64,000 bases of DNA from Escherichia coli (GTDB lineage: Bacteria > Pseudomonadota > Gammaproteobacteria > Enterobacterales > Enterobacteriaceae). Location of the stretch: assembly GCF_013122565.1 (NCBI RefSeq), contig NZ_CP053258.1; one strand, written 5' to 3'. Below, piece by piece: positions 43,701-45,463 of the stretch. Each line of letters starts with the position of its first letter. Positions within the stretch are counted from its first letter, which is position 1. The position numbers were made by a program.

Positions 43701-45463
43701 CAGTTACGTTAACTACAACTGACGGGCTGTGTAGCGAGTATAATTTGTATTTTGCGTGGCATTCCGTGCCTTTAACGCTGTCGTGACTGCCACGCTGCAT
43801 AAAACAAGTCCATAAGTACAACAAATAAATGGTTTATCAGTATGTTAGATATCAATCAATTTATTTGAACAAGGCGGTCAATTCTCTTCGATTTTATCTC
43901 TCGAAAAAAAACGTGATACTCATCACATCGACGAAACAACGTCACTTATACAAAAATCACCTGCGAGAGATTAATTATGAAAACTATCAATACTGTTGTT
44001 GCTGCTATGGCTCTTTCAACTCTGTCATTTGGCGTGTTTGCCGCGGAACCGGTAACGGCATCCCAGGCACAGAACATGAATAAAATCGGCGTGGTTTCTG
44101 CCGATGGCGCATCCACCCTCGATGCCCTGGAAGCGAAACTGGCTGAGAAAGCGGCGGCAGCCGGTGCCAGTGGATACAGCATCACTTCTGCCACCAACAA
44201 CAATAAATTAAGCGGTACTGCGGTAATTTATAAGTAATTCGTAGGACGGATAAGGCGTTTACGCCGCATCCGGCAACAGATGCCTGATGCGACGCTACCG
44301 CGTCTTATCAGACCTACAAAATCCGAACCGTTGGCTGAATCAGGCGTTTACGCTACGTCCAGCACAAGTATTTCCCTGTCTGTTTGCCGACAGACGCATA
44401 TGCTCTAACCCTCATTGATCCTATGTTACCCTTGTTTGCCCGTCCGCCACTGGACGGGCTTTTTTTTAGCTGGCTAACTGCTGACAGAAAGCCTGCAACG
44501 TCTCTTCCTGCATACCAATCTGCCGCGCCGCATCACAAATGGCCTGCCAGCTTCCCGCATCCAATGGAATCCCCTGCTCCTGCCGTTCGCGACGCGTGTT
44601 CACTTCCCACTCGCCCGGGAGCAAAATCGGCTTATCGTCATCATGCGGCGAGGCTTTCACCCACTCGGCAAAGGCTTCGGTCTGCGCGCTACAATCCGGC
44701 GCGCCGAACAGCTCCGGATTGATGATGATGGTGGTCATGCAGTTAAGAATGGCATCGGGACTGGTTTGTAACGTTTCCTGATGCGTCGTTTTACCGCCGG
44801 AAAGCGCCCCACCAAGAATTTCACACATCGCTGCAAGGGCGTAGCCTTTATGTTCGGCAAAGGTCAACAGCGAACCCAACGGCGACTCCTGCATTACCGC
44901 CGGATTGGTCGTCGGCACGCCGTTAACGTCAATCAGGCAACCTGGCGGCACGGGGACGCCTTTATGCCAGGCGACGCGGGTTTTGCCAAATGCAATGGCG
45001 CTGGTGGCGTAATCAAGCAACAGCGGGAAATTATCTTTACGAGGGAAAACCACACAGAAGGGATTGGTGCCAAAGCGGCTGTCGCGACCGTGGAACGGCG
45101 CGACCATTGGAATACCGACCACGCTAACAAAGTGGATAGAGACAAACCCCGCCGCTGCACACTGCTCCGCCCAGTAACCGATACGGCCGATATGATGCGA
45201 GTTATGTAGCGCCACGGCAGCAATACCGTGCTGATGCGCTTTCTCAATCCCCAGCGCCATCGCTTCGTGTGCCGCGACCTGACCAAATGCGCGATCGCCA
45301 TCGAGCGTGACCGCCGCCCCCGCCTCTTTAACGATTTTAGCATGATGATTAATTTGCAGATGCCCCTGACTCCAGGAACGCACATAGCTTGGGATCATGC
45401 CAATACCATGTGAATCATGCCCTGCCAGGTTTGCCGCGATTAAATGGTCGGCAACTAATTTCG

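What the first reader, a model, noticed from the sequence alone, without database searches (positions are those of the whole stretch)
44241..44468. Triple REP cluster plus a strong terminator whose T-tract overlaps the ybiC stop codon
Three REP-like palindromes follow ybiJ, and a GC stem with a run of 8 T then overlaps the stop codon of the convergent ybiC. This packs a BIME-like element and termination signals for both genes into ~230 bp and could be a hotspot for rearrangement.
Basis: seen in the sequence. Interest (0 to 1): 0.25.

Follow-up and report, generated by a model that had tools for sequence, protein, structure and literature searches.

The report
REP cluster plus ZbiJ sRNA terminator

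Summary
Two canonical REPs (44241-44275, 44281-44318) and one degenerate REP (44329-44364) follow ybiJ. An 8-bp G+C-rich hairpin plus T8 (44438-44467) overlaps the hcxB/ybiC stop codon (44466-44468) by 2 nt.

- The hairpin+T8 is a terminator on the + strand only. It is the 3' end of ZbiJ (= asYbiE; K-12 b4814; window 44371-44467), a published Hfq-dependent sRNA from the ybiJ 3'UTR that represses rpoS.
- On the - strand hcxB is followed by the annotated small-protein gene ybiE (44340-44399). Its last codons and stop lie inside REP3.
- The ZbiJ core (AACCCUCAUUG … GUUACCC … terminator) is conserved in at least seven other enterobacterial genera. There it follows the ybiJ stop with no REPs or ybiE, so those two are Escherichia-specific additions.
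- The "rearrangement hotspot" idea holds. About 75% of 5,425 complete E. coli genomes have 3 REPs. About 21% have lost REP1+REP2 (89-91 nt). In 241 genomes (4.4%), IS621 sits in REP2, with inversions in both genomes examined.

Every component is already known. Interest is low.

The parts
43977..44237 (+). ybiJ coding sequence (DUF1471 protein), host gene of the 3'UTR
   Evidence: ORF; annotated as ybiJ in homologous E. coli records
44241..44275 (-). REP1, Y-type REP. It starts 3 nt after the ybiJ stop codon.
   Evidence: 1 mismatch to the Y consensus, 0 matches expected. Hairpin -14.4 kcal/mol, z = -3.2. Forms part of the Rfam RF02564 match.
44281..44318 (+). REP2, Z2-type REP. It contains the IS621 target 11-mer position (44307-44317: ATCAGACCTAC here, ATCAGGCCTAC in K-12).
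   Evidence: 1 mismatch to the Z2 consensus. Hairpin -15.4 kcal/mol, z = -5.6. IS621 natural target from PMC11208160. IS621 is inserted after ...ATCAGGCCT in L006.
44329..44364 (-). REP3, a degenerate Y-type REP and direct repeat of REP1 89 nt away. It encodes the C-terminal residues and stop codon of ybiE on the - strand.
   Evidence: 75% identity to REP1. Weak hairpin, z = -1.3. The deletion alleles join REP1 to REP3.
44340..44399 (-). ybiE, a 19-aa small protein gene (MRLSANRQGNTCAGRSVNA). Its Shine-Dalgarno GAGGG is the complement of 44409-44413.
   Evidence: Translation. Annotated as ybiE (b4769, WP_211180490.1) at the homologous place. Synthesis of the protein is cited from Weaver et al. 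2019 in PMC8545128.
44371..44467 (+). ZbiJ (= asYbiE), an Hfq-dependent sRNA derived from the ybiJ 3'UTR
   Evidence: K-12 ncRNA zbiJ b4814 at 837435..837531 maps to these coordinates. The sequence is identical to K-12 over this stretch. Literature: PMC8175672 and PMC8545128. Fold -28.5 kcal/mol, z = -5.25.
44378..44395 (+). 5' stem-loop of ZbiJ
   Evidence: -8.4 kcal/mol, z = -3.3. The same hairpin follows the ybiJ stop directly in Citrobacter sp. R56.
44400..44437 (+). Conserved seed region of ZbiJ, largely unpaired in the predicted fold (weak pairs only within 44396-44426) (GCUCUAACCCUCAUUGAUCCU … GUUACCCUUG)
   Evidence: CCTCAT is invariant and AACCCTCATTG nearly invariant in 21 sequences from 9 genera. 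Predicted pairing of 44401-44426 with rpoS -28..-6 is -23.4 kcal/mol.
44438..44467 (+). Intrinsic terminator of ybiJ/ZbiJ: hairpin 44438-44459 plus U8 at 44460-44467, the likely Hfq-binding 3' module
   Evidence: 3 of 9 stem pairs show compensatory changes across genera.
44466..44468 (-). hcxB (ybiC) stop codon TAA, sharing 2 nt with the T-run

Best explanation
The 228-bp ybiJ–hcxB spacer is a composite of known elements.

**Layout on the + strand**
- ybiJ stop codon.
- A BIME-2-like REP array: Y-type REP1, Z2-type REP2 and degenerate REP3.
- ZbiJ: a 5' hairpin, a conserved C-rich seed, and an intrinsic terminator with U8.

**What is shown**
- The terminator ends ybiJ transcripts and forms the 3' end of ZbiJ/asYbiE.
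- ZbiJ/asYbiE is a ~97-nt Hfq-dependent sRNA that accumulates in stationary phase, has 21 RIL-seq partners, and represses rpoS when overexpressed. This comes from the literature.

**What is inferred**
- ZbiJ is cut out of the longer ybiJ mRNA just 3' of REP3. GU|AUU at 44368-44372 fits the RNase E motif RN|WUU.
- The REP hairpins left at the new 3' end protect the upstream ybiJ mRNA from 3' exonucleases.
- The REP hairpins may also attenuate read-through into ZbiJ.

**The - strand**
- The hairpin is not a terminator on this strand. This is shown.
- hcxB transcripts therefore probably run antisense through ZbiJ into ybiE and end or are stabilised at the REPs. This is inferred.
- The RBS of ybiE is the complement of the ZbiJ seed, and its last codons are REP3. 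This is shown.

**Origin and DNA-level behaviour**
- The REPs and ybiE are Escherichia-specific insertions into an older, conserved ybiJ–ZbiJ unit.
- At the DNA level the REPs serve as substrates for REP×REP deletion.
- REP2 serves as the specific target of IS621.
For: **Identity of the parts**
- REP searches and the Rfam match.
- Annotation of zbiJ (b4814) and ybiE (b4769) at the homologous K-12 coordinates. The sequence is identical over ZbiJ.
- ybiE translation.

**Strand specificity of the terminator**
- Only a + strand site was found. The sequence after the hairpin on the - strand is AAACAAGG.

**sRNA function**
- PMC8545128: chimeras with rpoS, repression of rpoS::lacZ and of RpoS protein, species of ~350 and ~100 nt.
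- My duplex calculation places the pairing in the conserved seed: -23.4 kcal/mol against -17.6±3.3 for shuffles, with 22 of 500 shuffles as good.

**Conservation**
- The ybiJ 3'UTR is 90-123 nt in Citrobacter, Enterobacter, Lelliottia, Pluralibacter, Pseudocitrobacter, Pseudescherichia and Superficieibacter. It consists of the ZbiJ core.
- It is 230-249 nt only in E. coli and E. albertii, because of the REPs.

**No promoter-like site in the spacer:**

**Polymorphism:**
Against: - The 5' end of ZbiJ has no mapped RNase E site or TSS (PMC8175672), so processing is inferred rather than shown.
- A multicopy plasmid carrying only the intergenic region raised asYbiE levels (PMC8545128). That could mean a promoter inside the spacer, or vector read-through.
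- About 21% of genomes lack REP1+REP2, so whatever the REPs do for the RNAs is dispensable.
- The rpoS pairing energy is only modestly better than shuffled controls (p ≈ 0.04).
- Nothing here measures where hcxB transcripts actually end.
Confidence: 0.85

Rival explanations
1. One reading: the spacer is a BIME plus a shared, bidirectional terminator that ends both ybiJ and hcxB/ybiC.
For: The hairpin abuts the hcxB stop, overlapping by 2 nt. In Citrobacter the hcxB stop lies 2 nt from the same T-run (my reading), so the tight packing is conserved. An A8 run precedes the hairpin on the - strand. From general knowledge, hairpins between convergent genes can act in both directions.
Against: There is no U-tract after the hairpin on the - strand (AAACAAGG), and the scan found no - strand terminator there. 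ybiE lies 66 nt downstream on the same strand. Its synthesis is reported (citing Weaver 2019), and no promoter-like site was seen for it. It therefore most simply depends on read-through from hcxB.
Confidence: 0.12
2. ZbiJ is an independent transcription unit with its own promoter inside REP3 or the spacer, not a processed 3'UTR fragment. The REPs upstream would then be irrelevant to it.
For: A plasmid carrying only the ybiC-ybiJ intergenic region increased asYbiE (PMC8545128). No RNase E site is mapped at the 5' end.
Against: No sigma-70-like promoter was found in the spacer, and no TSS is mapped within 50 nt. In other genera the ZbiJ core starts 0-30 nt after the ybiJ stop, leaving no room for a promoter outside the coding sequence. 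A ~350-nt species extending upstream is seen on northern blots.
Confidence: 0.2
3. The REPs are neutral selfish passengers with no role in the expression of ybiJ, ZbiJ, hcxB or ybiE. ybiE is a translated but functionless ORF created by chance.
For: The REPs are absent in all other genera sampled, and two of the three are absent in about 21% of E. coli genomes. The ybiE stop lies in a variable REP position. The ORF is 19 aa here, 34 aa in L009 and 40 aa in E. albertii, and its ATG is GTG in L003. REP3 does not fold better than shuffles.
Against: From established knowledge, REPs stabilise upstream mRNA and can attenuate transcription, though this was not tested here. The 3-REP layout with the same linkers is kept between E. 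coli and E. albertii.
Confidence: 0.4

Closest known systems
ZbiJ / asYbiE sRNA of E. coli K-12 (b4814)
   Same: Same locus, same strand, and a sequence identical to K-12 over all 97 nt, including the terminator.
   Different: Nothing in the sRNA itself. Upstream, this strain has two base differences in REP2/REP3 relative to K-12.
BIME-2 type REP arrays (Y and Z2 REPs in alternating orientation with short linkers)
   Same: There is a Y-type and a Z2-type REP in inverted orientation 5 nt apart, then a further Y-like copy. There is no long linker.
   Different: The third unit is degenerate and has been partly co-opted as coding sequence (ybiE). The array sits inside a 3'UTR, upstream of an sRNA.
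Rfam RF02564 naRNA4 (REP325-derived nucleoid-associated RNA)
   Same: REP1+REP2 score above the family's gathering threshold and show the two-hairpin structure.
   Different: The model in effect describes any Y+Z2 REP pair. This is a single pair in an mRNA 3'UTR, not the six-fold REP325 array. HU binding is untested.
3'UTR-derived Hfq sRNAs that share the host mRNA's terminator (CpxQ, SdhX, DapZ type)
   Same: A conserved seed plus the terminator hairpin and U-tail of the parent gene, with Hfq dependence.
   Different: In Escherichia, a 130-nt REP array separates the stop codon from the sRNA, and a small ORF is encoded antisense to the sRNA's 5' part.
IS621 (IS110 family, bridge-RNA recombinase) targeting of REPs
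   Same: In 241 genomes the element sits after ATCAGGCCT of REP2, the published natural target ATCAGGCCTAC.
   Different: The window carries no IS621 here, and its REP2 target has one mismatch (ATCAGACCTAC).

Membership tests
E. coli REP (Y / Z2 types) | 35-40-nt imperfect palindrome matching the REP consensus, including the terminal GTAG/CTAC | tested here: met
   REP1 and REP2 each have 1 mismatch to the consensus, with 0 matches in 100 shuffles. Hairpin z-scores are -3.2 and -5.6. Both also match the REP query sequences printed in PMC11208160.
E. coli REP (Y / Z2 types) | The third copy also matches the consensus and folds as a REP hairpin | tested here: inconclusive
   REP3 is 75% identical to REP1 and scores 25 bits against the Rfam model (GA 59.5). 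Its hairpin is not better than shuffles (z = -1.3).
BIME | Two or more REPs in alternating orientation separated by short conserved linkers | tested here: met
   REP1/REP2 form inverted repeats I1 and I2 with a 5-nt gap. REP3 is direct to REP1.
BIME-1 (RIP/RIB) | Long linker carrying an IHF site between the Y and Z1 REPs | tested here: not met
   The linkers are 5 nt and 10 nt, so there is no room for the ~34-nt L motif. The Z unit matches Z2.
Intrinsic (Rho-independent) terminator | G+C-rich stem-loop immediately followed by a U-run on the transcribed strand | tested here: met
   + strand: 9 pairs, 7 G-C, then T8; -17.6 kcal/mol.
Bidirectional intrinsic terminator | U-run after the hairpin on both strands | tested here: not met
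   On the - strand the hairpin is followed by AAACAAGG, and the scan finds no - strand site.
ZbiJ sRNA | Orthologous position and sequence to K-12 b4814 | tested here: met
   Coordinates map to 44371-44467. The sequence is identical to K-12 and to the E. coli locus L009 over 97/97 nt.
Hfq-dependent sRNA | Conserved seed predicted to be largely unpaired, plus a terminator hairpin with a U-tail of at least 6 | tested here: met
Hfq-dependent sRNA | Binding to and stabilisation by Hfq | not testable with these tools
   Reported for K-12 in PMC8175672.
YbiE small protein | Intact ORF identical to WP_211180490.1 with a Shine-Dalgarno sequence | tested here: met
   GAGGG lies 9 nt upstream of the ATG.
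naRNA4 (RF02564) | Score at or above the Rfam gathering threshold | tested here: met
   72.7 bits against 59.5
naRNA4 (RF02564) | HU-dependent nucleoid association | not testable with these tools
   -

The most novel reading that the evidence does not exclude
REP copy number and IS621 insertion upstream of ZbiJ may act as a natural, lineage-specific dial on ZbiJ supply, and through it on RpoS translation. The states are 3 REPs (about 75% of genomes), 1 REP (about 21%) and IS621 in REP2 (4.4%). The IS621 state uncouples ZbiJ from the ybiJ promoter. In strain 97-3250 it places ZbiJ in sense behind rhlE. A corollary is that ybiE is a de novo Escherichia gene assembled from the antisense strand of an sRNA plus a decaying REP.
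Probability: 0.2. Interest if true: 0.45.

Novelty: already known. Interest (0 to 1): 0.15.

Why it matters
For annotation, the "strong terminator" should be read as the 3' module of a known regulatory RNA, and the "third REP" as partly coding. It should not be read as a shared terminator.

The comparative result is a modest addition: an old, conserved ybiJ–ZbiJ unit into which Escherichia inserted REPs, with a small ORF arising across the junction.

The allele frequencies give ready-made natural variants for testing whether REPs in a 3'UTR affect sRNA biogenesis. None of this changes current understanding.

Tried and rejected
- **Junction query for IS621.** A 171-nt REP2/IS621 junction query was too repetitive to count insertions, because other REP–IS621 junctions matched. 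It was replaced by a 311-nt query anchored in ybiJ.
- **Coverage as a marker of the long allele.** Other BIMEs cover the 61-nt probe at 84-92% identity, so I used the ≥95% identity band instead.
- **Full-length RNA duplex.** Pairing full-length ZbiJ with the rpoS leader gave an unrealistic -44.9 kcal/mol multi-loop duplex. I redid it with only the unstructured seed region and shuffled controls.
- **REP annotation in NC_000913.3.** The copy held here shows no repeat_region even at 5000-6000, where I recall GenBank's K-12 record annotating a REP element. Absence of a REP feature at ybiJ-hcxB is therefore uninformative.
- **Papers.** A full-text search for 'zbij' with match 'anywhere' returned noise. 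Liang, Rudd & Deutscher 2015 (REPs within 15 nt of a stop codon stall ribosomes) could not be retrieved, so that link rests on my memory only. The Weaver et al. preprint does not use the name ybiE.
- **Other weak Rfam hits over the terminator.** anti-hemB, Betaproteobacteria toxic sRNA, suhB and the rest are all far below their gathering scores. They reflect a generic hairpin plus U-tail.
- **IHF site / BIME-1.** Rejected on linker length.

Full report
**1. Where we are**

The window is Escherichia coli DNA in reverse orientation relative to K-12. The gene order is fiu (40371-42653), ybiX, ybiI and ybiJ (43977-44237) on the + strand, followed by convergent hcxB (formerly ybiC, 44466-45551) and ybiB on the - strand. 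The finding covers the 228-bp ybiJ–hcxB spacer.

**2.

- REP1 (44241-44274, read on the - strand) has 1 mismatch to a Y-type REP consensus. REP2 (44282-44317, + strand) has 1 mismatch to a Z2-type consensus. Neither consensus matched any of 100 dinucleotide-preserving shuffles of the window.
- Together the two REPs score 72.7 bits against Rfam RF02564 (naRNA4). This model is in effect a Y+Z2 REP pair, with a gathering score of 59.5. It is the only Rfam family reaching its threshold in all 64 kb.
- Each REP folds well (-14.4 and -15.4 kcal/mol; z = -3.2 and -5.6). As a pair they can form a -45 kcal/mol composite hairpin.
- The third "REP" (44329-44364) is a decayed copy. It is 75% identical to REP1 as a direct repeat exactly 89 nt downstream. 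Its hairpin is no better than shuffles (z = -1.3).
- The terminator is a hairpin at 44438-44459 (7 G-C pairs, -17.6 kcal/mol, z = -4.8) followed by T8 at 44460-44467.
- The hcxB stop TAA is the complement of 44466-44468, so it overlaps the T-run by 2 nt.

**3.

RefSeq NC_000913.3 annotates two further genes in the homologous K-12 spacer.

- **zbiJ** (b4814, "small regulatory RNA ZbiJ") lies at 837435-837531 on the ybiJ strand. This maps to window 44371-44467 (+). The window is identical to K-12 over this stretch.
- **ybiE** (b4769, 19 aa) lies on the hcxB strand. This maps to window 44340-44399 (-) and translates to MRLSANRQGNTCAGRSVNA.

The "strong terminator" is therefore the 3' end of ZbiJ.

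What the papers report:
- Bar et al. 2021 (PMC8175672) predicted ZbiJ from Hfq RIL-seq, where it has 21 partners. [quoted passage not shown] They found no mapped TSS or RNase E site near its 5' end.
- Han & Lory 2021 (PMC8545128) found the same RNA independently as asYbiE, ligated to rpoS mRNA. They saw species of ~350 and ~100 nt. Overexpression lowered rpoS::lacZ activity and RpoS protein, and they predicted pairing at the rpoS Shine-Dalgarno sequence (-24 to -7).
- YbiE synthesis is credited there to Weaver et al. 2019.

**4. Anatomy of ZbiJ**

- The predicted fold is -28.5 kcal/mol (z = -5.25). It has a 5' hairpin (44378-44395), an open C-rich stretch, and the terminator with U8.
- I paired the open stretch with rpoS -30..+6, taken from K-12. 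The best duplex joins 44401-44426 to rpoS -28..-6 at -23.4 kcal/mol. Shuffled seeds gave -17.6 ± 3.3, and 22 of 500 were as good.
- This agrees with the published site but is only modest support on its own.

**5. Strand specificity**

- On the - strand the hairpin is preceded by A8 and followed by AAACAAGG. The scan finds no - strand terminator in the spacer. The hairpin is therefore not a canonical bidirectional terminator.
- ybiE starts 66 nt beyond the hcxB stop on the same strand. Its Shine-Dalgarno GAGGG is the complement of the ZbiJ seed CCCUC (44409-44413). No promoter-like site was found for it.
- The simplest reading, which is an inference, is that hcxB transcripts read through the hairpin, carry ybiE, and end or are trimmed back to the REPs.
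- Any such transcript is perfectly complementary to ZbiJ.

**6. Comparative evidence**

A scan of one genome per species with YbiJ returned 30 loci.

- In Citrobacter, Enterobacter, Lelliottia, Pluralibacter, Pseudocitrobacter, Pseudescherichia and Superficieibacter, the distance from the ybiJ stop to the end of the T-run is 90-123 nt. In E. coli and E. albertii it is 230-249 nt.
- The shorter 3'UTRs consist of the ZbiJ core. CCTCAT is invariant, AACCCTCATTG and GTTACCC are nearly invariant, and a terminator follows. Three of its nine stem pairs show compensatory double changes.
- None of these genera has REPs or a ybiE ORF there.
- Citrobacter sp. R56 has the E. coli-type 5' hairpin directly after the stop codon.
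- The REP array and ybiE are therefore Escherichia-specific additions inserted between the ybiJ stop and an older sRNA.
- hcxB is the convergent neighbour only in Escherichia and some Citrobacter. By my reading, its stop in those Citrobacter lies 2 nt from the T-run.

**7. ybiE is evolutionarily soft**

- Its stop codon (TGA) exists only because REP3 reads ATCAGGCG where a canonical REP reads ATAAGGCG.
- The ORF is 19 aa in the window and K-12, 34 aa in the E. coli locus L009, and 40 aa in E. albertii. In L003 the ATG is GTG and the gene is not annotated.
- This fits a young, possibly de novo ORF. It says nothing firm about function.

**8. Is it a rearrangement hotspot?**

The spacer is present in 5,425 of 5,426 complete E. 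coli genomes. Three states exist.

- **(a) Long 3-REP allele.** About 4,045 genomes match a REP2–linker–REP3 probe at ≥95% identity.
- **(b) Short allele lacking 89-91 nt.** This removes exactly REP1 to REP3, leaving one hybrid REP. It accounts for about 21% by subtraction, and 8 of 40 evenly spaced rows.
  - The sampled short alleles derive from two different REP3 variants: ATAAGG/TTTCCGC and ATCAGG/TTTACGC. This suggests at least two independent deletions.
  - E. albertii shares the 3-REP layout and linkers, so the short form is derived.
- **(c) IS621 inserted after ATCAGGCCT of REP2.** This occurs in 241 genomes, with a 100% identical junction in all 30 top-ranked rows listed. The site is the published natural IS621 target ATCAGGCCTAC (PMC11208160). 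The window itself has ATCAGACCTAC.
  - In strain 7_56_38A the segment ybiA–ybiE is inverted, giving ybiJ–IS621–ybiA.
  - In O26-type strain 97-3250 the segment ybiJ–ybiT is also inverted between two IS621 copies.
  - In 97-3250, ybiE and ZbiJ now lie downstream of rhlE, with ZbiJ in the sense orientation.
  - The junction there reads GCTTATCAG-TATCT-ACAAAATCC. Compared with the K-12 rhlE REP, it looks like the scar of a lost IS621 copy. That is my interpretation.
  - Because the listed IS621 junctions are identical, this may be one inherited insertion rather than recurrent hits.

**9. Mechanism, with status**

*Shown:*
- The identity of all the parts.
- The + strand specificity of the terminator.
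- Conservation of the ZbiJ core.
- Lineage restriction and polymorphism of the REPs.

*From the literature:*
- Hfq dependence of ZbiJ.
- Repression of rpoS.

*Inferred:*
- ZbiJ is released by endonucleolytic cleavage just 3' of REP3. GU|AUU at 44368-44372 fits the RNase E motif RN|WUU known from Salmonella, which I cite from memory.
- The REP hairpins then cap the upstream ybiJ mRNA, following the classical REP stabiliser role.
- The REP hairpins may also damp read-through into ZbiJ.
- The REP1 stem begins 9 nt after the ybiJ stop. By the Liang–Rudd–Deutscher 2015 model this could stall terminating ribosomes. The paper could not be retrieved, so this point rests on memory.

**10. Verdict**

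This is a correct observation of ordinary, already-described elements. It is wrong about a shared terminator, and it misses the sRNA and the small ORF. Novelty is "already known" and interest is low. The residual novelty is the evolutionary layering and the natural allele series upstream of ZbiJ.

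Noticed in passing
window 24293-24491: ybiV (23477-24292, +) directly abuts ybiT (24492-26084, -) across about 200 bp containing two REPs. 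ybiU, which lies between them in K-12, is absent. The same ybiU-less arrangement occurs in 1,052 of 5,425 complete E. coli genomes.
   Followed up: partly
L006:4280-5720, L008:15480-17010 and 21960-22230, L042 (strains 97-3250 and 7_56_38A): These genomes show IS621-associated inversions around the ybiJ REP cluster. In 7_56_38A, [ybiA..ybiE] is inverted. In 97-3250, [ybiJ..ybiT] is additionally inverted between two IS621 copies. The rhlE–ybiE junction carries TATCT, the last 5 nt of the IS621 right end plus core, in place of GCCT of the rhlE REP. This looks like a scar of a lost IS621 copy. ZbiJ ends up in sense downstream of rhlE.
   Followed up: partly
L010:1759-1800 (E. albertii): The motif TAATTCGTAGG (the ybiJ stop codon plus the head of REP1) is present twice in tandem-like fashion. 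There is an extra partial REP before the 3-REP array, giving a 249-nt 3'UTR.
   Followed up: no
L011, L012, L023, L025-L030 about 1775-1810 (Enterobacter/Lelliottia): The ZbiJ homologues in these genera have a different 5' hairpin (CUCGCC…GGCGAG). Its loop displays a second copy of the ACCCUC seed motif.
   Followed up: no
L005:900-1040 and L003 (short-allele E. coli strains): Some short-allele strains carry a 1-nt deletion inside the conserved ZbiJ seed (CCCTCA-TGATCC) and a T7 run instead of T8. In L003 the ybiE ATG is GTG and the gene is not annotated.
   Followed up: no
window 44340-44399 (-): YbiE (MRLSANRQGNTCAGRSVNA) is polar and basic. PMC8545128 describes it as composed of hydrophobic amino acids, which the sequence does not bear out.
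   Followed up: yes
window 43950-44550 and 24100-24700: The window is not identical to any complete E. coli genome in the collection. The best matches are 98.8% over the ybiJ-hcxB region and 99.0% to pigeon strain PT62 at ybiV-ybiT. The source is therefore probably a lineage not represented among the RefSeq complete genomes.
   Followed up: no
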